Counted from the first letter of the stretch, positions 18,752 to 37,029 are shown. The stretch is DNA of 64,000 bases from a bacterium (GCA_036382775.1 DASVHD010000016.1:8323-72322), one strand, 5' to 3'. Program-made: numbers and translations. The notes: generated by a model from the sequence alone, not told the origin.

Positions 18752-19198
18752 TCAATCATACGCGCGGCGGGTTATTTCATCGGTCACGATCGGTTGAATC
18801 AAAGCCTCCCATTCCGGAGAATCCCAGGTTTTAAGTGCAGTATGCATAATGTAATATTTTTGAGGAATCGGGTGAGTTCCAACGACAACTTCAATTCCGT
18901 ATTTATTCTTGATGAAATCGCGCAATTGGGTGATGTACGGGCACGGCGGGTAACCAACAACCATGCCCGTCGCGAAATGGATGACGCTGGCTCCGTTTTT
19001 CTTCATTTCTTCAGGCGCGTATTCAATATTGCCTCCGGGGCAACCATTGCAGGTCGCGTACCCCACGATTTCTAAATTCTGCTTCTGGTACCGGCCGAAA
19101 GCACCCTCTCTGTTTCTGGCGGCACGAAAGCATTTTCCTCCGGCGCAGGTTCGATAACGGTCACAAATTATTATGCCGATCTTCACTTTTTCTTTCAT
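18752..19198 (-). CDS. CGGC-domain protein
   Basis: KIGIIICDRYRTCAGGKCF...GYATCNGCPGG...VIHFATGM...PCPY matches the CGGC family pattern; RBS AAGGAG before the ATG at 19198. Confidence 0.6.
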   Translation of the reverse strand: MKEKVKIGIIICDRYRTCAGGKCFRAARNREGAFGRYQKQNLEIVGYATCNGCPGGNIEYAPEEMKKNGASVIHFATGMVVGYPPCPYITQLRDFIKNKYGIEVVVGTHPIPQKYYIMHTALKTWDSPEWEALIQPIVTDEITRRAYD

Positions 19199-19234
19199 CG
19201 CAGCTCCTTGTTCATATATTGCAGATACCAATGG

Positions 19235-20542
19235 TCACGGTATGACCGTAATTCTCCCCGGATTTTTTTTGGTTACCCTGCCAATTACCGGCGATAAGTT
19301 CGGATACCTTTCCCAGAAAAACCCCAGTTTATCCTCAGGCAATACGACTGCCAATCCACCCGATGTTTCAGAACTGAAGATGAGCTTGCCAAGCAGAGAA
19401 TTTTTATCTTTTCTCCGCACGTTATTTGAAAAAGAACCAAGGTTCATGGAAATGCCTGGTTCCTCAACTCCTTTTTTCAAAACTTCCAGAACTCCTTTGT
19501 GCACAGGTATTTGAGAAAGCCGCAGTTCAATGCCCACCCTGCTCGCCTGCGCCATCTCTACCAAATGGCCCGCCAATCCATAGCCAGTAATATCGGTGGC
19601 AGCGTGAGTTCCTGCCTGCCTCATGGCAAGCGAGGCATCACGGTTCAAAGTAGTCATTGCTTCAACAACCTGCTGTAAATCAATCCCTTGGTCTTTTTTT
19701 TCGATAACCGATTGAATGATGGTCCCGGTACCGATTGGTTTGGTGAGTACAACCACATCCCCCGGTTGGGCTCCAGTATTGGTGATTATTCTATCCGGGT
19801 GAATATAGCCAAAAACCGCGAGCCCATATCTAATCTCGTTGGCAACAAAGGTATGCCCGCCAAGGATAGTGACTCCTGCTTCTTGTGCCCTTTCTTCGCC
19901 ACCAAGCAGAATTTGCCCTAATATTTCAGGATCGCCGTCCCCTGGAAAACCGATGATATTTAGACCGAGTTTTGGATCCCCGCCCATCGCGTAGATGTCA
20001 GAAATAGAATTCGCGGCCACAATCATACCATACACTTTTGGATCCGAGATAACGGGGGTGAGCATATCAACAGTAAAGACAACTGCGGAATTCTTACTTA
20101 TCCGATAGACACCTGCGTCATCAGCAGTATTAATGCCAACCAGAAGATTTTTATCCTTGCTCCGGGGGAGAATGGAAAGTGCTTGCGCCAACTGCGCAGC
20201 CGACATCTTTGACGCTCAACCCGGGCAGGTAATGGTCTCGAGAATATTGAATATCTCTCGTTTATAGTCTTTTTTGCAAAAGAGCCGACAGTGGCAATAA
20301 CCATCCTGCTCCACCTCATCATCCAGGGTCGGACAGGGGCATACGACATCGCATTCTCGATCTACCGGATGGTGTTGTTTGCAGGGGCAATAATATTTGC
20401 CATGCTCTTTCAGGTTATTGGTCATGAGCCCGATTATCTGTTCATCCCAATCCCGATTGGGATTTATTATAAATCCTTTCCTTTCGGCAATTTTTTTTAA
20501 CCGCTGATAGTTCATTTGACAATCATTATCATGTTCAAACAT
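19235..20542 (-). CDS. selD: selenophosphate synthetase SelD with in-frame UGA (selenocysteine) codon and an N-terminal FTR-catalytic-subunit-like domain (fusion)
   Basis: The track's ORFs 20216-20542 and 19235-20206 are in the same frame, separated by TGA(20216-20218)+GCG TCA AAG. ...ITCPG-U-ASKMSAAQL aligns to E. coli SelD GAGCGCKISPKVL with U at the catalytic Cys. The N-terminal 95 aa carry CPC-x13-CPC-x11-CHC. Strong RBS AAGGAG at the 20542 ATG. Confidence 0.7.
20181..20200 (-). ncRNA. SECIS-like stem-loop 16 nt 3' of the UGA in the selD mRNA
   Basis: mRNA GCUGCGC-AGUUG-GCGCA(A)GC: 7-bp stem with a bulged A and a 5-nt G/U-rich loop. Confidence 0.45.
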
Positions 20543-20648
20543 TTTTTCTCCTTAAATTTTCCGTGTCGGCAATAAGTTTGGGTGTTCCAAACTGACAACA
20601 AACACAATTAAAGATAATGATTTGGTTTTTCAATTCGATCTCAGCCTT

Positions 20649-22135: not shown

Positions 22136-22237
22136 CTGAATTCCCTTTATTTAACCCTTATATTGTATCTCACTAAACAATAATCTCCTCTTTTAGCACG
22201 ATCTACCATAACATCAAACAAATTTTCAATTACTGGT

Positions 22238-23407
22238 TCAGATCTTTTCAAGAGCCTGCTGTAAATCAAATATAATATCTTGGACATTTTCAATGCCAAC
22301 TGACAAGCGCACAAAACCCGGACTGATTCCGCATTTCTGTAAATCGTTTTCAGAATAGTTCGAATGGGTCATTGAGGCAGGATGCTCGATCAAAGTATCG
22401 ACATCTCCGAGACTCACCGCGAGGATGCACAATTTGACTGAATTCATGAGAACCTTCCCCGCTTCTTTCCCGCCCTTCATATCAAAACCAATCATGCCGC
22501 CGAAATCACTCATCTGTTTCCTGGCGGTCCCGTGTCCGGGATGATCTGGCAAACCAGGGTAATATACTTTTTCAACCCTGGGCTGGCTTGTGAGAAACTG
22601 AACAATTCTTTTTGCGTTTTCGCAATGACGGGTCATCCGCACGGCGAGTGTTTTCAATCCTCTTAAAATCAGCCAGGCATTGAAAGGCGATGCCGTTGCA
22701 CCCATTTCTTTAGCAGTCTCGGCCTGCATTCTCGCGATAAAATCCCCCTTGCCGACAACCATGCCGCCGACAATATCACCGTGCCCGCTCAAATACTTGG
22801 TTGCCGAATGGACCACGATGTCGGCCCCAAGTTCTATTGGTCGCTGGAGATATGGGGTCGCAAAAGTATTGTCCACACATACCGGGATATTACGGCTTCG
22901 GGCGATTTCAGAGCACCGTGCAATATCGATAATTTTGAGCGTAGGATTGACCGGCGTCTCAATAAATATCATTCGGGTGTTCGGTTTTATTGCTTTGTTT
23001 AATTCATCAATTTTCGTCGCATCAACAATAGTAACCTGAATGCCCAGGCGGGGCAGGATTGTGTTGAATAAAGCAAATGTGCCGCCGTAAATTGTATTGT
23101 CCGAGATGATGTAATCATTGCAGCCCGCGCAAGTTATGATCGTGGCTAAGATTGCGGCAAGACCAGAAGAGAATACCAAACCGGACTCGGCTGACTCCAA
23201 CCGCGCAATTTTGCCTGCCAGAATGTCAATCGTGGGGTTGCTGATCCTTGTATAGATATATCCTTCTTCTTCATTTTTAAACAAACGCGCCCCGTGATCG
23301 GCATCGCGGAAGGCAAAAGTTGATGTCTGATAGATGGGCGGCGAGATCGCACCGGTTGATTTATCCGGGTGCTGACCACCATGAACGATATCGGTCTCAA
23401 TACGCAT
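22238..23407 (-). CDS. Cys/Met-metabolism PLP-dependent enzyme, methionine gamma-lyase-like (copy 1)
   Basis: Start chosen at MRIETDIVHGG by alignment with paralog 33853-35022; ...SATKYLSGHGD... PLP-Lys region. Confidence 0.75.
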   Translation of the reverse strand: MRIETDIVHGGQHPDKSTGAISPPIYQTSTFAFRDADHGARLFKNEEEGYIYTRISNPTIDILAGKIARLESAESGLVFSSGLAAILATIITCAGCNDYIISDNTIYGGTFALFNTILPRLGIQVTIVDATKIDELNKAIKPNTRMIFIETPVNPTLKIIDIARCSEIARSRNIPVCVDNTFATPYLQRPIELGADIVVHSATKYLSGHGDIVGGMVVGKGDFIARMQAETAKEMGATASPFNAWLILRGLKTLAVRMTRHCENAKRIVQFLTSQPRVEKVYYPGLPDHPGHGTARKQMSDFGGMIGFDMKGGKEAGKVLMNSVKLCILAVSLGDVDTLIEHPASMTHSNYSENDLQKCGISPGFVRLSVGIENVQDIIFDLQQALEKI

Positions 23408-23556
23408 TATCGCCTCGGGTTCGGCAAAGATGGGAAGAAAAAGGCTTCCCCTGATCAGATGCAATGGCAAGCTTGTTTAGGACATATCCTTTGTCTTCCC
23501 CCATCTCTGATGGTTTTTTGTAATCCTGCCGGTAAACTTCGTCTTCTTTATATTCT

Positions 23557-26138: not shown

Positions 26139-26990
26139 TTATTTCTCTTTATCTTTAATAGGCCTTATTCTTTCGTCTATTGAGCGGCATATCCTTTCCA
26201 GGATCTTTGCCGCTTCGGCATCCGGATACATTTCGACAAATGGTCTACCATTATCAGTGGTCTCGACGATCCGCGGGTCTAAAGGGACTTGTCCTAAAAA
26301 TGGCACACCCATTTCCCTGGCGGCTTTCTCGCCCCCGCCGGACTTAAAGAGATCGATTTTGGTGCCACAGTTAGGACAGCTCAAACCGCTCATGTTTTCC
26401 AACATGCCAAGGACTGGAACGGAAAGCTGCTGGAGAAACCGGACGCATTTGCGTGAATCAAGCAGGGCAATATCCTGAGGTGTGGTAACGATGATCGCGC
26501 CGGTCAGCTTATTTATCATCTGGCATATGGAAAGCGGCTCATCACCCGTGCCCGGGGGCGAATCAATGATCAAATAGTCAAGTTTACCCCAGTTTACTTC
26601 GGCAAGGAACTGCCTCAAAACGCCCATTTTCATCGGTCCCCGCCAGATTACCGGCATATCGGTATTCTGAAGCAGGGAAGCCATGGAAAAGGCAACAAGA
26701 TTAGGATTAATTTGAAACGGAACCATTCCCTCAGTATCCATCTGCAGCTCTTTGCCTTCAAAACCGAGCATTTTTGCGACCGAAGGGCCATGGATATCCG
26801 CATCAAGCAACCCCACTTTTGCTCCCCGGCGGCTCAGACAAGCCGCTATATTGATAGCCACAAAACTTTTGCCGACCCCGCCCTTGTTGGATAAAACCAG
26901 TATCTTCGCCAAGATTTGCGCCATATTCTTGGCTAACATCGCTTCCAGGCGTTTCAGGTCATTTTCTTTATCACTACTCATCTTCTGCAC
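26139..26990 (-). CDS. Mrp/NBP35 (ApbC) family Fe-S cluster carrier ATPase
   Basis: SNKGGVGKSFVAINIAACL P-loop; C-terminal CPNCG. Confidence 0.8.
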   Translation of the reverse strand: MQKMSSDKENDLKRLEAMLAKNMAQILAKILVLSNKGGVGKSFVAINIAACLSRRGAKVGLLDADIHGPSVAKMLGFEGKELQMDTEGMVPFQINPNLVAFSMASLLQNTDMPVIWRGPMKMGVLRQFLAEVNWGKLDYLIIDSPPGTGDEPLSICQMINKLTGAIIVTTPQDIALLDSRKCVRFLQQLSVPVLGMLENMSGLSCPNCGTKIDLFKSGGGEKAAREMGVPFLGQVPLDPRIVETTDNGRPFVEMYPDAEAAKILERICRSIDERIRPIKDKEK

Positions 26991-27226
26991 TTCCCATCAC
27001 CAGAACAGGGCGGCTTTTCGCAGCGATCATCCCGACCGCAACAAGTCTTACCTTGTTGTGATCCGATCGCACGTCCGCCCACGGCAACATTACTTTTAGA
27101 AAGTATCCTATTCAATTCTTTACTGCCACAATACTGGCATTTAATTGCTATGTCACCCTGTCCTATGCCAATAAGAAATTCGTTTATCGCATTACAGTGT
27201 TTGCATTGGTATTCATAAATAGGCAT
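26978..27226 (-). CDS. FmdB-family zinc-ribbon protein (copy 2)
   Basis: MPIYEYQCKHCNAINEF...CQYCGSKEL; 13-nt overlap with the next gene, as in copy 1. Confidence 0.6.
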   Translation of the reverse strand: MPIYEYQCKHCNAINEFLIGIGQGDIAIKCQYCGSKELNRILSKSNVAVGGRAIGSQQGKTCCGRDDRCEKPPCSGDGKCRR

Positions 27227-27315
27227 ATGGACTTTGCGTTATCGCGCTGGTCTCATATATATCTCCTTGGCTCAAGCCTTCATTAGATGAACAATTAATA
27301 GGGGACCAAGGGACC

Positions 27316-27705
27316 TTACTTTACCTCCGGCTCGTTGTGAGAGCAACCGAGTTCCGGTCGGTTCACCAGATTGCCGTTCAGGAAGAGTTTCAGCGCATTT
27401 TCAACGTCTTCTATCTCTGTAATAAATGCTTCGATCTTTGCGTTGCTGAGATCGTCATAGATCCGTCTACCCATACCGTGCGATATGACAACCCCGCAAT
27501 CGCTAAGGGCCTCAAGAATGGGGGCGTGGCGGTCAAAGCTATGGTTTGAGCCTTCGAGACCCCGGGCATGACCCGTAAAAGTATTGTCGCGATACTCCTG
27601 TTTCTTGATCTCCATGCCTTCGATCTCAAAAATCACAAAACCTCGGGTTCGACCGAAATGTGAAGAAATAGTTTTCCCGTCATCAGATGCAATGGCAATC
27701 TTCAT
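27316..27705 (-). CDS. NifX/NifB-like dinitrogenase FeMo-cofactor-binding domain protein
   Basis: MKIAIASDDGKTISSHFGRTRGFVIFEIEG; RBS AAAGGAG before the ATG at 27705. Confidence 0.7.
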   Translation of the reverse strand: MKIAIASDDGKTISSHFGRTRGFVIFEIEGMEIKKQEYRDNTFTGHARGLEGSNHSFDRHAPILEALSDCGVVISHGMGRRIYDDLSNAKIEAFITEIEDVENALKLFLNGNLVNRPELGCSHNEPEVK

Positions 27706-27709
27706 AAAT

Positions 27710-28183
27710 TCAATCTCCTTTCTTTTTTTTCTCAACTAACTGGTGATGGTAAGAACCTTCTCTTATCATTCTTACTCCGCATTTTGGACATTTTTCTTCC
27801 CGGCACGGCATTCCTGGTTTATGCGGTATCTTTTCGCCGCACTTTGGACATAAACAGAATCCGCATGAACCCATACCTGTTTTTAACATGGCATTCATTT
27901 GTATATTACCTCCTTCAATCCTTAATGCCTTGCCTTTGACCAAGGCAGCAGCCACCTTTCTGTGCGCCGACTCAATGATTCTGCCGAAAGTCTGACGCGA
28001 CACCTTCATTTTTTCTGCCGCCTGTTCCTGGTAAAGACCCTCAAGGTCGGCAAGCCTCACAGCCTCGAATTCATCCAAAGTCAATATTTCGACTTCAAGC
28101 ATGACCAGGGGTACACCACGGGGTTTAAAATAACAGCACCTGGGTTCAGACCCGATTTGTCGGCAGCATTGCGGTCTCGCCAT
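27710..28183 (-). CDS. DUF134 (UPF0251) DNA-binding protein fused to a CPxCG zinc-ribbon module
   Basis: [25 protein letters not shown]...[37 protein letters not shown] matches the DUF134 pattern; C-terminus paralogous to 23834-24034. Confidence 0.6.
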
Positions 28184-28213
28184 CTATTCGATACTCCTTA
28201 CCATAGCCTATAT

Positions 28214-28241
28214 ATTATAGGCATATGCTCATAATTGTCAA
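28214..28241 (-). promoter_or_regulatory. consensus promoter TTGACA-16-TATAAT for the DUF134-NifX-FmdB-Mrp operon, overlapped by the near-palindrome cctatatattatagg (28207-28221)
   Basis: Hexamers read on the minus strand; 30-nt leader with RBS AAGGAG. Confidence 0.5.
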
Positions 28242-28309
28242 GGGAGTAAATTATATCAGCAATAAACATCAACCATTGATTCCGTACACTTCTTGGTTAA
28301 AATACCGCT

Positions 28310-28837
28310 ATGGACCAAAAAAAATTTATTGAACCAAAAGACCTTGATAAAAAACAACTGCTGGAATTACTGGAAGATGCCGCGAGAAACTGGCTTGCCC
28401 ACGACGGACTGTGGTTTCAAGCGGTTGAAAAAAAATGCGGTTTGGAGACGGCGATCGAACTTGATGGCAATGCCTGGAAAGAGTTCACTCAGATCGAAGC
28501 CCGGAGAATCATGAAACGCCTGAACATCAAACCCGGCGGCGGAATCCCGGCATTGCATCAGGCATTAAAATTTCGACTTTATGCGTTTGTAAATGTACAA
28601 GCAATAACTGAAGTTTCAGATAACCGATGCCTTTTCCGCATGATGAATTGTCGCGTACAAGAAGCGCGCAGAAGGAAAAACCTGCCTGACTTTCCATGTA
28701 AACCCGTAGGCATGATTGAATATTGCCATTTTGCAAAAACTATTGACCCGCGCATAGAAACACGCTGTATCGCGTGCCCGCCGGATCCCCATCCGGGAGA
28801 ATTCTATTGCTGCTGGGAATTTACTGCAGTTAAATAA
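28310..28837 (+). CDS. Cys-rich hypothetical protein (C-terminal CIACPPDPHPGEFYCCWEF)
   Basis: ORF only; no family recognised with confidence. Confidence 0.4.
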   Translation: MDQKKFIEPKDLDKKQLLELLEDAARNWLAHDGLWFQAVEKKCGLETAIELDGNAWKEFTQIEARRIMKRLNIKPGGGIPALHQALKFRLYAFVNVQAITEVSDNRCLFRMMNCRVQEARRRKNLPDFPCKPVGMIEYCHFAKTIDPRIETRCIACPPDPHPGEFYCCWEFTAVK

Positions 28838-30545
28838 TTTTAAAGATCAAATTTAGGATTCCACCAACCAGGAAACCGGAGCCGAGCAGGATCAACAGTA
28901 TTCTTAACGCATCACGCCACCCAAGTTCCCTCGCCATGGTGAAGAAGGTCGCGCAACAAGGAAGGTAGAGCACCAAAAAAATGCAGGCGATAACGAGCTG
29001 TTCAGGCCCGAGGTTATAAGGCGCCAACAATGCGATGGAGACATCTTTGCGCAAAAAACCGGATATCATAACCAGCGCCGTCTGCGGCGGCAGTCCGAGG
29101 ATGTACTCAAGTGGCGCGCCCAATATCACCGATAACGCATTGATCACCTTGAGCTGTTCTAAGATTCCAATGAAAAAGACACCCAGTATGATCAGCGGTA
29201 TCGCTTCGATGAAAAATGTACTCAACCGCAGCCAGACCTTCCTGAAAAGAATCGAAAGTCTCGGAATACGATAAGGCGGGATTTCGACGAACAGCTCGGG
29301 CGTCTCGCCCCTGAGCAGCTTATTCAGGAAAAAGCCCGTTAGGGCCGCGATGACGATGAGGATACCAAAGATTAATGCCACGTATCCGGCGCCATGGGGC
29401 ATGACCAGGCTTACGATCATAGCGGTCTGGGGCATGCAGGGCGCACTCATCATAATCAGAGCGACGGCTATCACCTTCTCCCGTCTGGTTTCCAGGATCC
29501 TCGTGGCGAGCATCGCCGGGACTTTGCATCCAAGACCTAATATGATGGGGATAGCGGAATAACCGTGCAGTCCCAGCCGATGAAAAATGCTGTCCAGAAG
29601 GACGGCCAACCGGGGGAGATAGCCCCAATCCTCCAGGAAACTCAATACTAAATAGAAGCCGAAAAGATAGGGAAGCACAACAACCAGCGGAATATAGAGA
29701 GCGGTTGTCAAAAGCCCGAATGATTCCAGAACATTCGGAGTTGTTCCCAGAAGCAGGGCACGGATAAACGGCACCGGTATCAAACTCACAATCCTTGCGA
29801 TAAAAGGTAAATAAAGGTTGTTGAACAAGGGATCGAGCAGAATGTTGATCAGTCCTTCACCGATAAGCCTGATAACATAAAATGTAGCCGCGAGGATAAC
29901 GAGGGCAATCATGATCCCGGTCACCGGTTTTATGGTCAGGTCGCCCAACATCTCCCAGAACGTGTGATGCCGGTGCCTCACGGTCTGGACCTGCTCTATG
30001 ATTTTCCCAACCTCGTGCCATTTTTCGGCATCTTCGTATTCATAAATACTTTTTTTAGCTTCGTTCAGCCTCCCGATCAATTCCTTTATTCTTTCACCCG
30101 TAACCGCGACCGTGGGTACGACCGGAATGCCGAGGATCGCCTCGAGCTTACCGATATTAATAGTGATACCAGTGTGTTTTGTTTCATCCCAGAGGTTAAG
30201 CACAACGATCAACAGGATATCTTTTTTCAGGAGCTGGAGCGTCAAGTTCAGATTTCTCTCCAGATTCGTGGCATCCAAAACATTTACCACAACAACGCCC
30301 TTGTCGCCGACCGCATCGTTAAGCAGCTCCAGCGCGACCTTTTCGGCCGGATTGGTCGGCTCCAGGCTGTATGTTCCCGGCACATCAACCACATCAACCT
30401 TCTGGTCGCCGACCTTCATGCTGCCCGACACGAATTCTACCGTGGTTCCCGGATAATTCGACGATATGACCCCGACGCCGGTAAGCCTTGAAAAAACGAC
30501 ACTCTTACCCACGTTGGGATTACCCATTAGCAAGATCTTTTTCAT
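28830..30545 (-). CDS. feoB: ferrous iron transporter FeoB
   Basis: N-terminal G-domain MGNPNVGKS; polytopic membrane C-terminus. Confidence 0.8.
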   Translation of the reverse strand: MKKILLMGNPNVGKSVVFSRLTGVGVISSNYPGTTVEFVSGSMKVGDQKVDVVDVPGTYSLEPTNPAEKVALELLNDAVGDKGVVVVNVLDATNLERNLNLTLQLLKKDILLIVVLNLWDETKHTGITINIGKLEAILGIPVVPTVAVTGERIKELIGRLNEAKKSIYEYEDAEKWHEVGKIIEQVQTVRHRHHTFWEMLGDLTIKPVTGIMIALVILAATFYVIRLIGEGLINILLDPLFNNLYLPFIARIVSLIPVPFIRALLLGTTPNVLESFGLLTTALYIPLVVVLPYLFGFYLVLSFLEDWGYLPRLAVLLDSIFHRLGLHGYSAIPIILGLGCKVPAMLATRILETRREKVIAVALIMMSAPCMPQTAMIVSLVMPHGAGYVALIFGILIVIAALTGFFLNKLLRGETPELFVEIPPYRIPRLSILFRKVWLRLSTFFIEAIPLIILGVFFIGILEQLKVINALSVILGAPLEYILGLPPQTALVMISGFLRKDVSIALLAPYNLGPEQLVIACIFLVLYLPCCATFFTMARELGWRDALRILLILLGSGFLVGGILNLIFKII

Positions 30546-30563
30546 GTCATTAATTTATTATTG

Positions 30564-30815
30564 CTATTGGCTACGATCATTGTCTGCAGGTTTGACAATA
30601 ATCCGGCGGGCTATGCCAAAACCTATCGCAACCTGGGCTTTGCCAACGCCTACGATCACCGGTCCGTGCATAATCTGCGTACTCACTTTGGTTATTTCTA
30701 CTCCGGGACGGATCTCCAGTGCCTCCAGTTTCATGGCCATTCCCCTGCCGCCCTGGATTTCAATAACTTTTCCCTTTTGGCCCGGTTGCATTACTGTTAA
30801 ATCGATCTTGTTCAT
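30564..30815 (-). CDS. feoA: FeoA
   Basis: 83-aa SH3-like protein immediately upstream of feoB. Confidence 0.7.
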   Translation of the reverse strand: MNKIDLTVMQPGQKGKVIEIQGGRGMAMKLEALEIRPGVEITKVSTQIMHGPVIVGVGKAQVAIGFGIARRIIVKPADNDRSQ

Positions 30816-31277
30816 TTACCTCTCCTTTGAAGAGCACTTCTTACAAAGCCCGTACAATTCCAATTTATGCGATTCTACTTTAAACCCATGCTTCGCCGCA
30901 ACCTGTTTTTGCAATTTTTCTATCTCATCTTGAGAAAATTCTATTATTTGCCCGCACCTCAAACAGATCAGGTGGTCGTGATGCTCGGCTTTGTGTCTGG
31001 GTTCAAATCTTGTCTCTTTGCCTTTAAATTGGCAGATATGCGCCAAACCCATATTGGCAAGTAATTTCAACGCGCGATAAACAGTCGCATAGCTGATCTG
31101 GGGATTGATTTTTTTGATTTCGTTATAGAGTTCCTCGGCCGTAAAATGCCGGTCCTCCTTAAGAAAATAATTAACGATGGATGTTCTTTTTTTAGAAGCT
31201 TTCAGCTTTTGTTCTTTTTTATATTTCTGGTACTCGTCCAGTCCATTTTGCTTTTTGATTTTGATTTGCATTTTCAT
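30816..31277 (-). CDS. Fur-family metalloregulator (copy 1), probably translated from a leaderless mRNA
   Basis: HHDHLICLRCGQIIEF...CKKC; start reassigned to the ATG at 31277 (MKMQIKIKK) because the track's TTG start is the -35 box itself. Confidence 0.7.
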   Translation of the reverse strand: MKMQIKIKKQNGLDEYQKYKKEQKLKASKKRTSIVNYFLKEDRHFTAEELYNEIKKINPQISYATVYRALKLLANMGLAHICQFKGKETRFEPRHKAEHHDHLICLRCGQIIEFSQDEIEKLQKQVAAKHGFKVESHKLELYGLCKKCSSKER

Positions 31278-32011: not shown

Positions 32012-32314
32012 TCAGTGCTTTTTTACCCGAAAAAACAGTTTGCAGTAACAATGGCCGTCCTTTTTTACCTCTTCATCGAGCGCGGGGCACGGGCAGAGGA
32101 CGTCATTAACCTCATCCAGTGGATCACTCTGCTTGCAGGGACAGAAGTATTTCCCATGCTCCTGATAATTCATGGTCATTAGTCCCACAACTTTTTTAAC
32201 CCGCTCATTATTCTGGTTCAGCCTGTATCCTTTGCTATTAGCAATACCTTCGATTCTTTTTAGATTTTCATCGTATTCTGTCATGCCGACAACGTCATCC
32301 CACTCATTAGCCAT
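32012..32314 (-). CDS. ferredoxin:thioredoxin reductase catalytic-subunit-like protein, standalone (copy 2)
   Basis: CPC-x13-CPC-x11-CYC motif; paralog of the N-terminal domain of the selD fusion. Confidence 0.6.
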   Translation of the reverse strand: MANEWDDVVGMTEYDENLKRIEGIANSKGYRLNQNNERVKKVVGLMTMNYQEHGKYFCPCKQSDPLDEVNDVLCPCPALDEEVKKDGHCYCKLFFRVKKH

Positions 32315-32564
32315 GTTGCCTCCCTTTTTTTAGTTTTAGAAAATCAGGAACTAAACAGGAATTTTTGGAATGTATTAAATGTAAATTGCGTAGATTGAAT
32401 AACTGGTGATGATTTTCTAAAGAGACCCGACCGGGTCGAAAAACCCGGAGAGTCATTTGTTATTTCCCCAAAAGGTAATGAGTTCTCTCATATTCAAGGC
32501 AATCATATGCGAATAATTTTTAATGTCAACATGGCAACTTGTTTTTTGCATGGTGCACCATGTG

Positions 32565-32930
32565 TCAATACATATTCCATTTCAATTTTGTTTCAAGGAT
32601 TTTGTTCTCTTTTATTTTTTCTTCACGCTGTTCAGAGTCGCATTCTAAAAGCAATGTTTTGAGCACTTCGGCATGCGCCTTTGCGTCTCTCGCCAGGTCA
32701 AGGAGAATCTTCCTAATGTGCTCGTTCGTGGTGAGCGTTGACAATTGTTCATAGAGATTTATCGCATCCGACTCCGCATTAGTACCAGCCCTGATGATTT
32801 CTTTGTCTAATTCCTCTTTGTGCAATTTATCCCATTTTGAAGGAATTTGGAATGGCATTTTTACCTCCTTCTCAAACATTTCGTCCTTAATATGTTCAAA
32901 AGACACCCAGAGCTTTTTTAACAAAATCAA
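32565..32930 (-). CDS. small ferritin-like/rubrerythrin-like protein
   Basis: AESDAINLYEQLS...EHIRKILLDLARDAKAHAEVLKTLL four-helix-bundle-like pattern; ATGA-coupled to the upstream M23 gene. Confidence 0.4.
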   Translation of the reverse strand: MILLKKLWVSFEHIKDEMFEKEVKMPFQIPSKWDKLHKEELDKEIIRAGTNAESDAINLYEQLSTLTTNEHIRKILLDLARDAKAHAEVLKTLLLECDSEQREEKIKENKILETKLKWNMY

Positions 32931-33844
32931 TCATAAATCATATCGGACAGATTGATGTAATTAGATGGATTTACTCTGATGCCTGAGACGTGTACTTCAT
33001 AATGCAAGTGCGAACAGGTTGCACGGCCTGTTGAGCCGACAGTGGCAATTATCTGTCCCCGCTTTATTATATCACCTAATTTCACCAAAATACTTTGACA
33101 ATGAGCATAGCGGGTTACATATCCATAACCATGGTCAATTTCAACCGACAATCCAAAACCCTGATTCCATCCCGTAAAGATAACTATGCCATCAGCTGTT
33201 GCATAAATTTGTGTTCCGGTCGGAGCACCGATATCAACGCCCCAATGCATGCGGATTTCTTTGGTGAACGGATCAACCCGGTAACCAAAGGGCGAGCCAA
33301 GAATACGCCCAGGTAAAGGATTTACTGAAGGCATATGTGCATAGCAATTCAGGTTGTCATCGATTTTGCGTTTTATTTCACCAAGACTCTTTCCTCTGAG
33401 ATTGCATTGACCACATAGGATATTAAGAGCATCGTGGATATCATCCAACATTTTTTGCGTCTGACTCGACAAATTTTTATCTGAGAAATCACTGGTGCTG
33501 CCGCCTATTCCCATAGACCACACATCGGGGTGTATATTGGCCATTTCCAGATAGGTGCGCTCGCGATAATCTCTGGCAATTTGTGTTTCCAGTTGCTGAT
33601 TTGCAGCTTGAACTAAGTGAGATAGTGAATCCGATTTCGCCAACAAGAATAAGTGTTCATCTTCAAGTCTGGCAAGGTTTGTCTTGGCAGCCGTAGTACA
33701 TGCGCGATAACAAAATAAGGCTATCGTAAAGGTAGTGAGAATCAAAAAGAGTGTAGCAATAAAATATGGTAGTATCCATGGCAGAGAAAGGCGGCGTGTC
33801 CAATTCCTCTTTCTGGATATCAACACTAAGTTGATTTTTTCCAT
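32927..33844 (-). CDS. M23-family peptidase (copy 2) with N-terminal membrane anchor
   Basis: HWGVDIGAP...GFGLSVEIDHGYGYVTRYAH...GSTGRATCSHLHYEVH. Confidence 0.75.
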   Translation of the reverse strand: MEKINLVLISRKRNWTRRLSLPWILPYFIATLFLILTTFTIALFCYRACTTAAKTNLARLEDEHLFLLAKSDSLSHLVQAANQQLETQIARDYRERTYLEMANIHPDVWSMGIGGSTSDFSDKNLSSQTQKMLDDIHDALNILCGQCNLRGKSLGEIKRKIDDNLNCYAHMPSVNPLPGRILGSPFGYRVDPFTKEIRMHWGVDIGAPTGTQIYATADGIVIFTGWNQGFGLSVEIDHGYGYVTRYAHCQSILVKLGDIIKRGQIIATVGSTGRATCSHLHYEVHVSGIRVNPSNYINLSDMIYD

Positions 33845-33852
33845 TATCCCTT

Positions 33853-35022
33853 TTATATTTTATCCAGCGCCTGTTTCAAATCATCAATCAAGTCGTTTAT
33901 GTTCTCAAGTCCAACTGACAACCTGACGAAACCTGGTTTGATACCGATTCTCATTAACTCTTCTTCAGTGTATGCCACGTGTGTCATTGAAGCCGGGTGT
34001 TCGATCAATGTATCAATATCACCGAGACTAACAGCAAGGATGCACAGTCTGACCGAATTCATTAATTTTTTACCTGCTTCAATGCCATTCTTAAGATCAA
34101 AACCGATCATACCTCCGAAGTTTGTCATCTGTTTCTTAGCCATTTCATAGCCGGGGTGCCCGGGCAGACCGGGATAATAAACTCTTTCAACTTTAGGGTG
34201 AGCCGCGAGGAAATCGGCAATTTCCATCGCATTTAAACAGTGCCTGTCCATTCTCACGGCAAGCGTCTTCAATCCACGTAAAACCAGCCAAGCGTTGAAA
34301 GGCGACATTGTTGCGCCGGTATGTTTTGCGAATTCTGACTGCATCCTTACAATGAAGTCGTTTTTACCGACAACTGCGCCGCCGATTATATCACCATGTC
34401 CGCCAAAATACTTCGTTGCCGAGTGAACAACTACGTCAGCACCGAATTGTATGGGCCTTTGCAGATATGGCGTTGCAAAGGTATTATCTACACACAAGTA
34501 TATTTGGTGTTTTTTTGCAATTTCTGCACATCGTTCAATGTCAATAATTTTCAATGTTGGATTTGCCGGGGTCTCAAAGAAAATCAGCCTGGTATTGGGT
34601 TTTATTGATCTTTCTATCTCCCCATTTTGCGCTGCATCAATAAAAGTTGTATGAATGCCCAACCGCGGCAGGACAATCTTGAATTGAGCGTATGTTCCAC
34701 CGTAAATTGTATTGTCACAAATGATATGCTCATTACTTTTAACACAGGTTATTATCGTCGCGAAAATAGCGGCGAGGCCCGAAGCAAATATAAGTCCGGC
34801 TTCGGCTGATTCCAGAAGGGCAATCTGCCGAGCAAGAAGGTCGGTGGTCGGATTTCGAAGCCGGGTGTAGATATATCCCGCTTCTTCATTTTGGAAAAGA
34901 TCAGCGCCGTGCTCGGCACTCTTGAAAGCAAAAGTTGATGTTTGATATATAGGCGGTGAAATGGCGCCCGTAATTTTGTCGGGATGCTGTTCCCCGTGAA
35001 CGATTATCGTTTCAACCCGCAT
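33853..35022 (-). CDS. methionine gamma-lyase-like PLP enzyme (copy 2)
   Basis: Colinear with 22238-23407 and similar along its whole length. Confidence 0.75.
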   Translation of the reverse strand: MRVETIIVHGEQHPDKITGAISPPIYQTSTFAFKSAEHGADLFQNEEAGYIYTRLRNPTTDLLARQIALLESAEAGLIFASGLAAIFATIITCVKSNEHIICDNTIYGGTYAQFKIVLPRLGIHTTFIDAAQNGEIERSIKPNTRLIFFETPANPTLKIIDIERCAEIAKKHQIYLCVDNTFATPYLQRPIQFGADVVVHSATKYFGGHGDIIGGAVVGKNDFIVRMQSEFAKHTGATMSPFNAWLVLRGLKTLAVRMDRHCLNAMEIADFLAAHPKVERVYYPGLPGHPGYEMAKKQMTNFGGMIGFDLKNGIEAGKKLMNSVRLCILAVSLGDIDTLIEHPASMTHVAYTEEELMRIGIKPGFVRLSVGLENINDLIDDLKQALDKI

Positions 35023-35181
35023 AGAACCTCCTCAACCATTGAAATGTGCTTGGATCCAGTGCCCTTAAAACGCTGGTTGCCCGTGCACGCGAAATTAATG
35101 ACCTTGCATGCAGTCGGTAGGAAAGAGAAATCGTTACGATGTTAATGAAAACCATTATCACTTATGAAAAAAAATATATCA

Positions 35182-36393
35182 TCATGATTTACCAACGGCG
35201 TTTTCTGCTATTTCACTTATCGCTTGTATTGTTCTTTGGATTTCCACGGCGGTGTTGAATGGTCCGATCGACAGCCGAACAGTACCGTCTGGCATCGTGC
35301 CGATGTTGTCATGAACAAGAGGGGCACAATGCAAACCCGTCCGCGAGTAAATGCCGTATCTGGTTTCAAGCATAGCACCTGTTTTATCCACGTCAAGTCC
35401 CTTTATTCGGAATGAGATTATGGCAGTGTGCTTTCCCATAACCGGTTCATTATAAAGAACGACATTGTCGATCTTCCGGAGTTCATTGCACAGCATTTTT
35501 GCGAGTTTCATTTCGTGTTTATATATGTTTTCTATTCCTTTTTCGAAAATATAATCATGCGCTGCAAAAAGACCCGCCACTCCAACCATATTTATCGTGC
35601 CGCACTCCAGATAATACGGAAACTTTTCTGGTTGATATCTTTCCTGGGAAAGTATTCCTGTACCGCCGAAACGAACCGCTTCTATTTTCACTCCATCCCG
35701 GATTTGCATGCCGCCGATGCCCATTGGACCCAACAACGATTTGTGTCCTGTAAACGCCACGACGTCAATATGCGATTTTTCCATATCGATGGGCACAACA
35801 CCAGCCGTCTGCGCGGCATCAAGCGCGAAAATCACGCCTGCTTTTGTGCATATTTCGCCGATATCCTTTATCGGTTGAATTGAGCCGATTACATTAGAGC
35901 AATGATTGACGATGACCAGTTTCGTATTCTTTTTGATTTTTTTCTTTATATCAGCAGGATCGATAAATCCTTTTTTATCGAATCCGATCCAATCTACATT
36001 GATATGCATCCTTAACGCCAGGTGATTCAATGGCCGAATAACCGCATTATGCTCCAGCGCAGTTGTTATGACGTGATCGCCATTTTTCAGAATACCATTG
36101 ATTATCATATTGAGCGAATCAGTTGCATTGTATGTAAAAATCAACCGATTGCGGTTCTCGGAATGAAAGAACCGCGTTAGTTTATCGCGTGTTCTCTCAA
36201 GTATCGTCTCCGCCTGTTGATAAGCATAACCTTTTGCCCGGCCGGGATTGACTCCATATTGTCGATAAAAGGCATTCATGAATTTGTAAACGCAATCCGG
36301 CTTGGGAAAAGTAGTTGATGCATTATCAAGATAGACGAAAGAAGTTCGCCTGAATTCTTTGGTGGCTCTTGTAATTTTTTTCATTTTACTCAC
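35182..36393 (-). CDS. class V aminotransferase, cysteine desulfurase/selenocysteine lyase-like (NifS/CsdA family)
   Basis: ~400 aa; ...VAFTGHKSLLGPMGIGG... PLP-Lys region. Confidence 0.7.
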   Translation of the reverse strand: MSKMKKITRATKEFRRTSFVYLDNASTTFPKPDCVYKFMNAFYRQYGVNPGRAKGYAYQQAETILERTRDKLTRFFHSENRNRLIFTYNATDSLNMIINGILKNGDHVITTALEHNAVIRPLNHLALRMHINVDWIGFDKKGFIDPADIKKKIKKNTKLVIVNHCSNVIGSIQPIKDIGEICTKAGVIFALDAAQTAGVVPIDMEKSHIDVVAFTGHKSLLGPMGIGGMQIRDGVKIEAVRFGGTGILSQERYQPEKFPYYLECGTINMVGVAGLFAAHDYIFEKGIENIYKHEMKLAKMLCNELRKIDNVVLYNEPVMGKHTAIISFRIKGLDVDKTGAMLETRYGIYSRTGLHCAPLVHDNIGTMPDGTVRLSIGPFNTAVEIQRTIQAISEIAENAVGKS

Positions 36394-36446: not shown

Positions 36447-36466
36447 TAGTAATGATAATCATTTTC
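36447..36466. promoter_or_regulatory. Fur box: AATGATAATCATT, an exact 13-mer core of the Fur consensus GATAATGATAATCATTATC
   Basis: tagtaatgataatcattttc lies ~55 nt upstream of the NifS-like start and directly downstream of the Fur copy 2 gene. Confidence 0.6.
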
Positions 36467-36483
36467 ATTAATAAAAAAAATTT

Positions 36484-36987
36484 TTATTTCTGACAATCGG
36501 CACATAATCCGCAAAATTGAATTACATGATTTGTGATCTTGAAACCAAATTTCTGTGAAAGTCCTCTTTCAGTCCGTTTTACCAGCTCGAGTTCGTCCTC
36601 GATAAAATCCGTATAATCTATCACTCGGCCACAACGTTTACAGACAAGATGATGATGATGCTGTTGACCCTTTGGACCTTCCGACAACTCATAACGAGCA
36701 CGGTCATCGCCAAAGTCAAATTTAAAAACCAATCCCATTCGGACCAGCAATTCAAGGGTGCGATATATTGTGGTTAATCCGATATTCGGATAAACTTTAT
36801 GCACAATAAAATAAATGTCTTCCGCGCTTAAGTGCTCAGTTGTGCTGTGCAACACATCCAAGATCGCCTCACGGGGTACAGTCATTCTATAGCCATGACC
36901 ATTGAACTTATGGCGCCAATATGACCATAATTTATATTTCTTTTTTAGCATATTTTCTTTCTTGGCAACTGTTGATAATGCAACCAT
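36484..36987 (-). CDS. Fur-family metalloregulator (copy 2)
   Basis: HHHHLVCKRCGRVIDY...CADC. Confidence 0.7.
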   Translation of the reverse strand: MVALSTVAKKENMLKKKYKLWSYWRHKFNGHGYRMTVPREAILDVLHSTTEHLSAEDIYFIVHKVYPNIGLTTIYRTLELLVRMGLVFKFDFGDDRARYELSEGPKGQQHHHHLVCKRCGRVIDYTDFIEDELELVKRTERGLSQKFGFKITNHVIQFCGLCADCQK

Positions 36988-37001
36988 TTTTGACCTATTC
37001 C

Positions 37002-37029
37002 ATTATAAACATAAGATGCGGAGTGTCAA
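37002..37029 (-). promoter_or_regulatory. consensus promoter TTGACA-16-TATAAT for Fur copy 2, with ~8-nt leader
   Basis: Read on the minus strand: tcttgaca ctccgcatcttatgtt tataat ggaataggtcaaaa ATG. Confidence 0.5.

What the first reader, a model, noticed from the sequence alone, without database searches (positions are those of the whole stretch)
36447..36466. Canonical Fur box between Fur copy 2 and the NifS-like / MGL / M23 operon
The + strand reads tagtAATGATAATCATTttc. Its 13-mer core is identical to the centre of the E. coli Fur consensus GATAATGATAATCATTATC.
- It lies ~55 nt upstream of the cysteine-desulfurase-like gene and immediately 3' of a fur paralog.
- This predicts metal-dependent repression of the desulfurase-lyase-peptidase operon.
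- It ties the duplicated cassette to iron (or another metal) homeostasis, alongside the second Fur-FeoAB unit at 28.8-31.3 kb.
Basis: partly seen in the sequence, partly recalled or inferred. Interest (0 to 1): 0.5.

Follow-up and report, generated by a model that had tools for sequence, protein, structure and literature searches.

The report
Conserved Fur-family operator after fur gene
The flagged sequence is a real, evolutionarily conserved binding site for a Fur-type metal-sensing repressor, placed just after that repressor's own gene to switch off a downstream cysteine-desulfurase operon; this is an ordinary kind of switch, but the regulator belongs to an uncharacterised subfamily common in uncultured anaerobes.

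Summary
Window 36447-36466 reads tagtAATGATAATCATTttc, 16/19 to the E. coli Fur box (0.01 such hits expected per window) and 16/17 to the published delta-proteobacterial FUR box. All genes here are on the minus strand.

The box lies 15 nt after the stop of Fur2 and 53 nt before the GTG start of a TIGR01977 (SclA-like) cysteine desulfurase. I built a matrix from the autoregulatory promoters of 12 Fur2 orthologues, independent of the window. It ranks this box second in the window (25.8 bits).

The layout fur, T-run, box, target gene recurs in 13 of 23 related loci from Omnitrophota, WOR-3, Latescibacteria and others. Two of them (L033, L034) have the same desulfurase downstream and a nearly identical box.

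It is therefore a functional Fur-family operator, most likely bound by Fur2. The signal is less certain. All 120 Fur2-clade proteins carry the PerR-type Asp instead of the Fur-type Glu at a key metal ligand, while a canonical Fur (Fur1) sits beside feoAB. This is a new member of a known kind, of moderate interest.

The parts
36447..36473 (-). Box A, the finding: a Fur-family operator. Matrix registers are 36447-36467 (25.8 bits) and 36453-36473 (22.9 bits). The 17-bp dFUR register is 36452-36468; the minus strand reads A-TGAAAAT-G-ATTATCA-T.
   Evidence: conserved in L033 (29.7 bits) and L034 (25.9 bits); footprint alignment A3
36473..36480 (-). T-run (8 T on the minus strand) between the fur2 stop codon and box A. 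It corresponds to the conserved (A)TATTTTTTT element that precedes post-fur boxes in orthologues. Its function is unknown.
36484..36951 (-). Fur2: a Fur-family regulator of 155 aa. The true start is ATG 36951-36949, not 36987. It has two CxxC motifs, an HHHH motif, Asp at the PerR-D104 / Fur-Glu position, and Arg in the recognition helix.
37002..37029 (-). fur2 promoter: TTGACA (37029-37024), 16-nt spacer, TATAAT (37007-37002). It matches the sigma-70 consensus at 12/12.
   Evidence: the same promoter architecture occurs in all orthologues
36973..36993 (-). Degenerate remnant of the autoregulatory operator. It scores 8.9 bits and has a 1-bp deletion in the centre. It sits where orthologues carry a 22-33-bit box.
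35182..36393 (-). SclA-like cysteine desulfurase family protein (TIGR01977, 453.5 bits against a cutoff of 377). It is the first gene controlled by box A.
35140..35160 (-). Box B, a second and stronger operator (31.9 bits). The minus strand reads TGATAATGGTTTTCATTAACA, one mismatch from the clade's post-fur consensus. It lies in the 159-nt gap before MGL2.
35167..35177 (-). ATATTTTTTTT element upstream of box B. The same element is seen before post-fur boxes in orthologues. The string ATATTTTTT occurs only twice in the window on both strands.
33853..35022 (-). Methionine-gamma-lyase-like PLP enzyme, copy 2. It scores below the NCBIfam equivalog cutoffs.
32927..33844 (-). M23 peptidase, copy 2.
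32565..32930 (-). Ferritin-like / rubrerythrin-domain protein (EncB-like). Its orthologue directly follows the desulfurase in L034.
32012..32314 (-). FtrB-like protein (ferredoxin:thioredoxin reductase catalytic-chain family), copy 2. It is 57% identical to the FeThRed_B gene inside the Fur2-linked cluster of L038. It is preceded by its own 11/12 promoter at 32529-32502.
31256..31276 (-). Weaker Fur-like box (18.2 bits), 7 nt downstream of the -10 element of the fur1-feoAB promoter. That promoter is TTGACA 31311-31306, 16-nt spacer, TATAAT 31289-31284.
28830..31277 (-). The fur1-feoA-feoB unit. Fur1 is a canonical Fur (HHDH motif, Glu ligand; best solved relatives are C. jejuni and E. coli Fur).
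20517..20537 (-). Candidate weak site (17.7 bits; 2 mismatches to the dFUR box) over codons 2-9 of ftrB1-selD in cassette copy 1. A 13.8-bit site lies upstream in the intergenic region at 20612-20632.

Best explanation
Box A is the operator of a Fur-family, metal-dependent repressor. The most likely binder is Fur2, the protein encoded immediately upstream.

In its metal-loaded form (Fe2+ is the most likely corepressor), a Fur2 dimer or dimers bind the 17-21-bp dyad, which has an overlapping second register 6 bp away. Binding blocks transcription into the SclA-like cysteine desulfurase gene. A second, better operator (box B) does the same job in front of MGL-M23-ferritin-like. When the regulator loses its metal, repression is relieved and the sulfur-mobilising and iron-handling genes are expressed. 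Metal loss could come from iron limitation or, given the PerR-type Asp ligand, possibly from metal-catalysed oxidation.

The fur2 promoter is a perfect sigma-70 consensus whose own operator has decayed, and no terminator lies between fur2 and the desulfurase gene. Box A therefore probably acts on transcripts that start upstream of it. It would work as a roadblock to read-through from the fur2 promoter, or by occluding a weak AT-rich promoter at the T-run. It probably does not act at a classical -35/-10 promoter of its own.

What is shown:
- the motif and its statistical significance;
- its conservation and its fixed position after fur across phyla;
- identity with the clade's autoregulatory operator.

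What is inferred:
- that Fur2 binds it;
- that the effect is repression;
- which signal is sensed;
- the roadblock mode of action.
For: Match and significance:
- 16/19 to the E. coli consensus, with 0.01 hits expected.
- 16/17 to the dFUR box, the best hit in the window (PMC545781).
- A matrix built from 12 orthologue autoregulatory sites (TTGACA-17-TATAAT followed directly by TGATAATGrnAACCATTATCA, then the ribosome-binding site and ATG) ranks box B first (31.9 bits) and box A second (25.8 bits) in the window. Both fall within the training range of 22.9-33.4 bits. The null expectation is 0.01 hits >=22.9 bits.

Specificity:
- In 205 kb of 23 Fur2-clade loci, every hit >=20 bits lies at the fur promoter, directly after fur, or (L040) at the CGGC-fur promoter.
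- 131 kb of unrelated control loci reach at most 19.0 bits.

Conservation:
- 13 of 23 loci have a box >=20 bits within 120 nt after the fur stop codon.
- L033 (Fur2 88% identical) and L034 (about 75% identical) have the same desulfurase downstream. Their boxes are TGAAAATGGTTATCATTAACA and TGAAAATGATTATCATTAGCA, while the flanks diverge. L033 even has a 114-nt insertion between the box and the ribosome-binding site.
- In alignment A3 of 12 regions, only the T-run and box columns are invariant.

Regulator and surroundings:
- Fur2 is a PF01475 protein with all metal-ligand positions filled and the Fur-type 'YRTLELL' recognition helix.
- There is no terminator and no Rfam element in the gap.
- The fur2 promoter matches 12/12 and its own box is degenerate.
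Against: - No strong promoter could be assigned to box A. The best candidate, TTATTA-17-TACTAT, matches only 7/12 and is not conserved in orthologues, so the mode of repression is inferred.
- A second Fur paralog (Fur1, canonical) is in the same window and has the same Arg-containing recognition helix, so it could bind the box too.
- Fur2 scores below every NCBIfam equivalog cutoff (125.8 against 220 for Bacillus-type Fur).
- Fur2 carries Asp where Fur proteins have Glu, so iron as the physiological signal is not secure.
- Most SclA-like homologues at 50-55% identity have neither a neighbouring Fur gene nor a box, so control of this gene family by Fur is lineage-specific.
- There are no expression or binding data.
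Confidence: 0.72

Rival explanations
1. The box is bound by Fur2, but Fur2 is functionally a PerR-like peroxide or redox sensor rather than an iron-limitation sensor. Fe2+-loaded Fur2 represses. H2O2 oxidises a metal-ligand histidine and releases the repressor. This induces Fe-S repair and assembly genes (desulfurase, NifU, Mrp/MinD-like, NifX-like), a ferritin/rubrerythrin-like protein and an FtrB-like thiol-redox protein.
For: - The Asp at the BsPerR-D104 position is invariant in 120 of 120 clade proteins. Fur1 has Glu there (alignment to 2fe3).
- PMC4866751 states that Fur proteins have Glu at this position and PerR proteins have Asp. It also reports that B. licheniformis PerR3, with Glu at position 85 plus Asp104 (the same ligand set as Fur2), is oxidised by H2O2.
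- A canonical Fur already sits beside feoAB.
- The regulon includes a rubrerythrin-domain protein next to the regulator (window, L034). This recalls the perR-rbr operons listed in PMC545781.
- The predicted PerR box of Desulfotalea, GTTAATGATAATCATTAct (PMC545781, Table 7), is about 16/19 identical to box A.
Against: - Overall similarity favours Fur. NCBIfam gives Fur (Bacillus type) 125.8 bits against PerR 85.6. The PDB search gives Fur 9ire 106 bits against BsPerR 70.8.
- The residues of the second Fur metal site (EcFur H87, D89, E108, H125) are retained as H, H, E, H, whereas BsPerR has Tyr at the D89 position.
- The box has the Fur-type G at half-site position 2 (TGAnAAT), not the B. subtilis PerR-type TTATAAT. 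The recognition helix has Arg, not Asn (own knowledge of Fuangthong & Helmann 2003 and Caux-Thang 2015; not retrievable here).
- The regulon lacks catalase, AhpC and Dps.
Confidence: 0.3
2. The box is an operator of the canonical iron sensor Fur1, either alone or shared with Fur2. Its position next to fur2 would then be incidental or reflect cross-regulation between the paralogs.
For: - Fur1 is a textbook Fur: HHDH motif, Glu ligand, C. jejuni Fur 100 bits and E. coli Fur 98 bits.
- It has the same Arg in the recognition helix.
- Its own promoter carries a related box (18.2 bits).
- Box A is 16/19 to the E. coli Fur box.
Against: - The motif was derived from promoters of Fur2 orthologues, where autoregulation is the simplest reading.
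- The fur, T-run, box module travels with Fur2-clade genes across phyla.
- The fur1 promoter box scores much lower than boxes A and B.
Confidence: 0.25
3. The sequence is a non-functional relic or a chance AT-rich palindrome. It might be left over from the ancestral fur, box, DUF5320 arrangement and have no regulatory role for the desulfurase operon.
For: - The intergenic region is AT-rich.
- In most orthologues the gene downstream of the box is DUF5320, not the desulfurase.
- No promoter could be assigned to box A.
Against: - Shuffles with intergenic or local AT-rich composition never reach 22.9 bits.
- The box is kept in three diverged lineages that have the desulfurase downstream, while the flanks change.
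- A second, near-consensus box lies inside the same gene string.
Confidence: 0.05
4. The site is a Zur (zinc) operator. The M23 peptidase would then be a zinc-starvation-regulated endopeptidase.
For: An M23 endopeptidase lies in the gene string. Zur control of an M23 endopeptidase is known in Vibrio (own knowledge; not checked here).
Against: - Fur2 keeps the His37-equivalent residue and has Glu, not Cys, at the position-85 equivalent. According to PMC4866751 these features are absent or replaced in Zur.
- The Zur model scores only 46.5 bits.
- The box is not of the Zur type: it matches neither TCGTAATnATTACGA nor the Desulfovibrio ATGCAACnnnGTTGCAT (PMC545781).
Confidence: 0.03

Closest known systems
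E. coli Fur box (GATAATGATAATCATTATC) and Fur repression of the sufABCDSE cysteine-desulfurase operon
   Same: The dyad has the same 19-bp architecture (arms GATAATG / CATTATC, 5-bp centre), with a 16/19 match. The target includes a class-V cysteine desulfurase. The regulator is a PF01475 protein.
   Different: - The operator sits directly after the regulator's own gene, not in a defined -35/-10 promoter.
- The desulfurase belongs to the TIGR01977 (EF2568/SclA) family, not SufS (259.5 bits against a 475 cutoff).
- There are no SufBCD genes.
- The regulator has Asp instead of Glu at the O-donor ligand.
Delta-proteobacterial dFUR box WTGAAAATNATTTTCAW (Rodionov et al. 2004, PMC545781)
   Same: Box A matches at 16/17. 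The clade's post-fur consensus A-TGAAAAT-G-GTTTTCA-T is the same 7-1-7 dyad. Overlapping boxes shifted by 6 bp occur, as described for Desulfovibrio. Boxes lie upstream of fur genes and feoAB.
   Different: The organisms here are Omnitrophota, WOR-3, Latescibacteria and similar, not delta-proteobacteria. The regulon differs (DUF5320, NifX-like, MinD/Mrp-like, FtrB-like, SclA-like). I did not test whether Fur2 belongs to that paper's FUR_Delta branch.
PerR, especially B. licheniformis PerR3 (PMC4866751) and the perR-rbr operons of anaerobes (PMC545781)
   Same: The regulatory ligand set H/E/H/H/D is identical to that of PerR3. The regulator gene is followed by a rubrerythrin-domain gene. The predicted Desulfotalea PerR box is nearly the same sequence as box A.
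   Different: Overall sequence, the second metal site, the recognition helix and the G-containing half-site are all Fur-like. No peroxidase or catalase genes are in the regulon seen here.
SclA selenocysteine lyase of Enterococcus faecalis (EF2568; bioRxiv 10.1101/2020.02.07.939272)
   Same: The regulated first gene belongs to the family named after EF2568 (TIGR01977, 453.5 bits against a 377 cutoff). A selD gene lies 15 kb away in the sister cassette.
   Different: The gene falls below the SclA-specific model cutoff (339 against 525). Its orthologue in L034 has no selenium genes nearby. Substrate preference is unknown.

Membership tests
Fur box (E. coli 19-bp consensus) | Close match to GATAATGATAATCATTATC, beyond what chance would give | tested here: met
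   16/19 match; 2 hits in the window against 0.01 expected.
Fur box (E. coli 19-bp consensus) | Location in a non-coding region upstream of the regulated gene | tested here: met
   The box lies wholly in the 90-nt gap between the fur2 stop codon and the desulfurase start, 53 nt before the GTG.
Fur box (E. coli 19-bp consensus) | Metal-dependent binding by a Fur protein | not testable with these tools
   This needs gel-shift, footprinting or ChIP experiments.
dFUR box (PMC545781) | 17-bp palindrome WTGAAAATNATTTTCAW upstream of fur or iron genes, often in pairs shifted by 6 bp | tested here: met
   16/17 at 36452-36468, the best hit in the window. A second register lies 6 bp away at 36453-36473.
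Cognate operator of the Fur2 clade | Same motif as in the autoregulated promoters of Fur2 orthologues | tested here: met
   A matrix from 12 orthologue promoters scores box A 25.8 bits and box B 31.9 bits, within the training range of 22.9-33.4.
Cognate operator of the Fur2 clade | Conserved in orthologous positions of diverged genomes | tested here: met
   13 of 23 loci have a box >=20 bits within 120 nt after the fur stop codon. L033 and L034 have the same downstream gene.
Fur (iron-sensing) protein, for Fur2 | PF01475 domain with a structural Cys4 site | tested here: met
   109.5 bits against a 23.1 cutoff. Both CxxC motifs are invariant.
Fur (iron-sensing) protein, for Fur2 | Reaches an NCBIfam Fur equivalog cutoff | tested here: not met
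   The best score is 125.8 bits against a 220 cutoff.
Fur (iron-sensing) protein, for Fur2 | Glu at the O-donor ligand (BsFur E108 / EcFur E101), which distinguishes Fur from PerR (PMC4866751) | tested here: not met
   Asp in Fur2 and in 120 of 120 clade members. Fur1 has Glu.
PerR, for Fur2 | Ligands His37, Asp85, His91, His93 and Asp104 | tested here: inconclusive
   Fur2 has H, E, H, H, D. This is 4 of 5 identical, with Glu at position 85 as in the H2O2-sensing PerR3 of B. licheniformis (PMC4866751).
PerR, for Fur2 | Reaches an NCBIfam PerR equivalog cutoff | tested here: not met
   85.6 bits against 180, and 73.2 against 200.
PerR, for Fur2 | H2O2-dependent oxidation and release from DNA | not testable with these tools
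   This needs biochemistry.
Zur, for Fur2 | Cys in place of the position-85 O-donor, and no His37 equivalent (PMC4866751) | tested here: not met
   Both the Glu and the His are present and invariant. The Zur model scores 46.5 bits against a 167 cutoff.
TIGR01977 cysteine desulfurase family (EF2568 type), for gene 35182-36393 | Score above the family cutoff | tested here: met
   453.5 bits against 377. The SclA-specific model is not met (339.4 against 525).

The most novel reading that the evidence does not exclude
Fur2 may represent a large, uncharacterised Fur-family subfamily. It has 1662 database proteins at E<=1e-30, found in Omnitrophota, WOR-3, Latescibacteria, Nitrospirota and others.

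The subfamily combines a Fur-type DNA-reading head and Fur box with an invariant HHHH motif and the PerR-type Asp ligand. It may act as the dedicated master switch of Fe-S cluster supply and trafficking genes in uncultured anaerobes. Those genes are DUF5320, NifX-like, MinD/Mrp-like, FtrB-like, NifU, the SclA-like desulfurase and a ferritin-like protein. The signal would be iron status read through peroxide-sensitive Fe2+.

The switch would use a two-operator design: one operator at its own promoter and one directly after its own gene. The second operator gates read-through into the target genes.
Probability: 0.3. Interest if true: 0.6.

Novelty: new member of a known kind. Interest (0 to 1): 0.38.

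Why it matters
The finding gives a concrete regulon prediction for organisms that cannot be cultured. A Fur-family repressor couples metal or redox status to sulfur mobilisation (desulfurase, methionine-gamma-lyase-like enzyme), to a ferritin-like protein, and in relatives to a widespread but functionally obscure gene cluster (DUF5320, NifX-like, MinD-like). The operator sequence is now defined well enough to scan whole MAGs (a 21-bp matrix with no false hits >=20 bits in about 330 kb of test loci).

The invariant Asp-for-Glu change offers a simple, testable question: is this clade a Fur or a PerR? By itself, a Fur box in front of a desulfurase gene is textbook biology.

Tried and rejected
- **Same-strain contigs.** Exact-protein contigs L001-L005 proved to be the same strain, with identical intergenic DNA. 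They are uninformative for footprinting.
- **Desulfurase homologues.** A metagenome scan with the desulfurase returned mostly 50-55% homologues with no neighbouring Fur gene and no box. Only L033 was syntenic. The other loci were reused as a negative control.
- **RNA element in the gaps.** Rfam found nothing at gathering thresholds over the whole window, and nothing credible at E<=1 in 31.9-37.2 kb. Folding of the fur2-sclA gap is no better than shuffles (z = 0.58). The terminator scan finds none between fur2 and the desulfurase gene.
- **A promoter for box A.** No candidate reached 9/12 on the minus strand. The TTATTA-17-TACTAT candidate that I noticed (7/12) is not conserved in L033, L034 or the DUF5320-type loci, so I did not adopt it.
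- **The ATATTTTTTT element as a -10 box.** Its spacing to candidate -35 hexamers is inconsistent across loci. It remains unexplained.
- **Literature searches.** I searched for Fur with DUF5320, for MTH1175/NifX-like clusters, and for the Asn61/Arg61 specificity switch. None returned anything usable.
- **SECIS fold after the in-frame UGA of ftrB1-selD.** The fold was not significant and I did not pursue it.

Full report
**1. Observation**

The + strand at 36447-36466 reads tagtaatgataatcattttc.
- Positions 36448-36466 match the E. coli Fur consensus GATAATGATAATCATTATC at 16 of 19 positions. At that stringency the 64-kb window holds two matches against 0.01 expected from dinucleotide-preserving shuffles.
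- The exact 13-mer core occurs once.
- All relevant genes are on the minus strand.

Gene order on the minus strand:

| Feature | Coordinates |
|---|---|
| Fur2 (PF01475) | 36484-36951 |
| Box A | 36447-36473 |
| Class-V aminotransferase / cysteine desulfurase | 35182-36393 |
| 159-nt gap | 35023-35181 |
| Cys/Met-metabolism PLP enzyme, methionine-gamma-lyase-like (MGL2) | 33853-35022 |
| M23 peptidase | 32927-33844 |
| Rubrerythrin/ferritin-like protein | 32565-32930 |
| FtrB-like protein | 32012-32314 |
| fur1-feoA-feoB | 28830-31277 |

Alignment to a related contig (L033) fixes two start codons. The desulfurase starts at GTG 36393. Fur2 starts at ATG 36951-36949 (155 aa), not at the longer ORF start 36987.

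**2.

The only other <=3-mismatch hit to the Fur consensus is 35141-35159, in the gap between the desulfurase and MGL2.

**3. What the regulator's relatives show**

A genome scan with Fur2 returned 12 loci at 56-67% identity. They are mostly Candidatus Omnitrophota, with some Auribacterota and bins labelled Spirochaetota. None has the desulfurase downstream.

All 12 share a striking promoter. It reads CTTGACA, about 17 nt, TATAAT, followed at once by the palindrome TGATAATGrnAACCATTATCA, then AAGGAG and the fur start codon. The simplest reading is an autoregulatory operator.

I built a 21-bp weight matrix from these 12 sites, which owe nothing to the window, and scanned the window.

| Position | Score (bits) | Location |
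|---|---|---|
| 35140-35160 | 31.9 | Box B, before MGL2 |
| 36447-36467 | 25.8 | The finding (box A) |
| 36453-36473 | 22.9 | Box A, second register shifted by 6 bp |
| 31256-31276 | 18.2 | 7 nt downstream of the -10 element of the fur1-feoAB promoter |
| 33939-33959 | 17.8 | 3' end of MGL2, about 95 nt before the M23 gene |
| 20517-20537 | 17.7 | First codons of ftrB1-selD |

- Training sites score 22.9-33.4 bits.
- First-order Markov shuffles give 0.01 hits >=22.9 bits and 1.13 hits >=13 bits per 64 kb. The window has 3 and 8.
- Sequence generated with intergenic or local AT-rich composition never reached 22.9 bits.

**4. Conservation of the box itself**

A protein search shows Fur2 belongs to a large, tightly conserved clade. 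It has 1662 proteins at E<=1e-30, many 70-79% identical. Source names include WOR-3, Latescibacteria, Nitrospirae/Nitrospirota and Omnitrophota/Omnitrophica.

Contexts of ten of these proteins, plus L033, were examined.

Two loci share the window's arrangement:
- L033 has Fur2 at 88% identity and the desulfurase at 91% identity over the 35 residues present. Its box is TGAAAATGGTTATCATTAACA (29.7 bits).
- L034 has Fur2 at about 75% identity and the desulfurase at 75% over 391 aa. Its box is TGAAAATGATTATCATTAGCA (25.9 bits).
- The window's minus strand reads TGAAAATGATTATCATTACTA.
- Flanking intergenic sequence diverges. L033 has a 114-nt insertion between the box and the ribosome-binding site, so the box stays with the fur stop codon, not with the target's start.

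In the other loci fur is followed by DUF5320, two NifX-like (Nitro_FeMo-Co) genes and two MinD/Mrp-like 4Fe-4S ATPases. L038 also has an FtrB-like gene and L036 a NifU_N gene. An almost invariant TGAAAATGGTTTTCATTAAC(G/A) sits between the fur stop codon and the DUF5320 ribosome-binding site.

Counts over 23 clade loci (205 kb):
- 21 have a box >=21.5 bits at the fur promoter.
- 13 have a box >=20 bits within 120 nt after the fur stop codon.
- The only other hit >=20 bits is at the promoter of a CGGC-fur operon (L040).
- Fifteen unrelated loci (131 kb) reach at most 19.0 bits.

An alignment of 12 post-fur / box B regions shows invariant columns only in a T-run and in the box.

Box A is therefore a conserved cis-element at a conserved position. 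Box B, one mismatch from the clade consensus and preceded by the same ATATTTTTTTT element, is a second copy of that module.

**5. Operon history**

- In L034 the desulfurase is followed directly by an orthologue of the window's ferritin-like gene (44% identity).
- The window therefore looks like an ancestral fur2, box, desulfurase, ferritin-like unit, into which box B + MGL + M23 has been inserted.
- Cassette copy 1 (MGL1 22238-23470, M23 20649-21899, ftrB1-selD, CGGC) has only the weak sites at ftrB1-selD, and none before MGL1.

**6. Mechanism**

- The fur2 promoter is a 12/12 sigma-70 consensus (37029-37002).
- The operator that follows it in orthologues has decayed here (8.9 bits, a 1-bp deletion) and also in L033.
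- No intrinsic terminator, Rfam element or unusually stable fold lies between fur2 and the desulfurase gene.
- No conserved -35/-10 pair can be placed around box A.
- In the DUF5320-type loci the box ends 6-10 nt before the ribosome-binding site, so transcription must start upstream of the box.

I infer that the post-fur operator gates transcripts that start upstream. These would come from the fur promoter or from a weak promoter at the T-run. Such a design lets the cell keep making the regulator while holding the targets off. This step is inference.

**7. Which signal?**

The motif matches the published delta-proteobacterial FUR box WTGAAAATNATTTTCAW at 16/17. That box was defined upstream of feoAB and fur genes (PMC545781).

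The same paper lists a predicted PerR box in Desulfotalea, GTTAATGATAATCATTAct, that is almost the same sequence. The motif alone therefore does not identify the sensor.

Evidence that Fur2 is Fur-like:
- It scores best against Fur models: Bacillus-type Fur 125.8 bits, PerR 85.6, Zur 46.5. All are below the equivalog cutoffs.
- It scores best against Fur structures: 9ire 106 bits, C. jejuni Fur 87, E. coli Fur 76, B. subtilis PerR 71.
- It keeps both CxxC motifs, the His33, Glu81, His87, His88, His90, Glu108 and His125 equivalents of E. coli Fur, and the 'YRTLELL' recognition helix with Arg.

Evidence that Fur2 is PerR-like:
- At the O-donor ligand where Fur proteins have Glu and PerR proteins have Asp (PMC4866751), Fur2 and all 120 clade members examined have Asp.
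- Its ligand set H/E/H/H/D equals that of the H2O2-sensing PerR3 of B. licheniformis (PMC4866751).
- Fur1 is a textbook Fur (HHDH, Glu; C. jejuni Fur 100 bits, E. coli Fur 98 bits) and sits with feoAB.

Zur is excluded by the ligand pattern and the scores.

I rate a Fur-family operator as very likely and Fur2 as its binder as likely. Fe2+ is the most probable corepressor. Whether derepression follows iron shortage or peroxide remains open, at roughly 55:30.

**8. Comparison with known systems**

The site works like a classical Fur box. Fur control of a cysteine desulfurase has a precedent in the E. coli suf operon (established knowledge; compare the PMC12683245 title).

It differs in three ways: the position of the operator after the regulator's own gene, the type of desulfurase (TIGR01977/EF2568 family, 453.5 bits against 377; below the SclA-specific cutoff), and the unusual ligand of the regulator.

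**9. Verdict**

The kind of element is known. This is a new member of that kind, belonging to an uncharacterised but widespread Fur subfamily. Interest is moderate.

Noticed in passing
window 19235-20542 (minus strand); TGA at 20216-20218: The FtrB-like ORF (20216-20542) and selD (19235-20206; TIGR00476, 296 bits) are in the same frame and separated only by a TGA. Read-through gives ...ETITCPG-U-ASKMSAAQL..., which fits the SelD active-site motif G(C/U)xxK. This looks like an FtrB-domain-SelD fusion selenoprotein. A quick fold for a SECIS hairpin was not significant.
   Followed up: partly
window 35140-35160: A second Fur-family operator (box B) is the best-scoring site in the window.
   Followed up: yes
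window 36473-36480 and 35167-35177; L006, L007, L008, L010, L012, L035, L036, L038, L039 just after the fur stop codon: A conserved (A)TATTTTTTT tract lies 5-15 nt upstream of post-fur operators across phyla. The string ATATTTTTT occurs only twice in the 64-kb window. It is not a terminator tail, because the T-run precedes the palindrome, and it is not convincingly a -10 element. Its function is unexplained.
   Followed up: partly
window 36973-37029 (minus strand): fur2 has a perfect 12/12 sigma-70 promoter, but the autoregulatory operator present in 21 of 23 related loci has decayed here (1-bp deletion, 8.9 bits) and in L033. This implies constitutive fur2 transcription in this lineage.
   Followed up: yes
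window 32315-32564 (minus strand): A strong promoter (TTGACA-16-TATGAT, 11/12, at 32529-32502) is followed by a leader of about 190 nt before FtrB2. The leader contains a GC-rich hairpin at 32426-32440. A 3-mismatch dFUR-like site (32507-32523) lies in the promoter spacer. There is no Rfam match. It could be an unknown leader or a small RNA.
   Followed up: no
window 26139-28837: Downstream of feoB lie DUF134 (27710-28183), a NifX-like gene (27316-27735) and an Mrp/NUBPL-type ATPase (26139-26990), plus a divergent DUF6125 gene. These are related to the cluster that follows Fur2 orthologues elsewhere, but no strong box accompanies them here. The best is a 4-mismatch dFUR site at 28225-28241.
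   Followed up: partly
window 22213-22229, 33939-33959, 34538-34554: Further weak Fur-like sites occur at three places: just after the MGL1 stop codon, in the 3' end of MGL2 about 95 nt before M23_2 (17.8 bits), and inside MGL2 (2 mismatches to the dFUR box). Each is individually compatible with chance, but all lie within the two cassettes.
   Followed up: no
L038 5968-6240; L040 3612-3980; L036 6067-6489: In relatives, FeThRed_B (57% identical to the window's FtrB2), a CGGC-domain gene and NifU_N are part of the Fur2-linked clusters. This links the window's FtrB-like and CGGC genes (18752-19231) to the same presumed regulon.
   Followed up: partly
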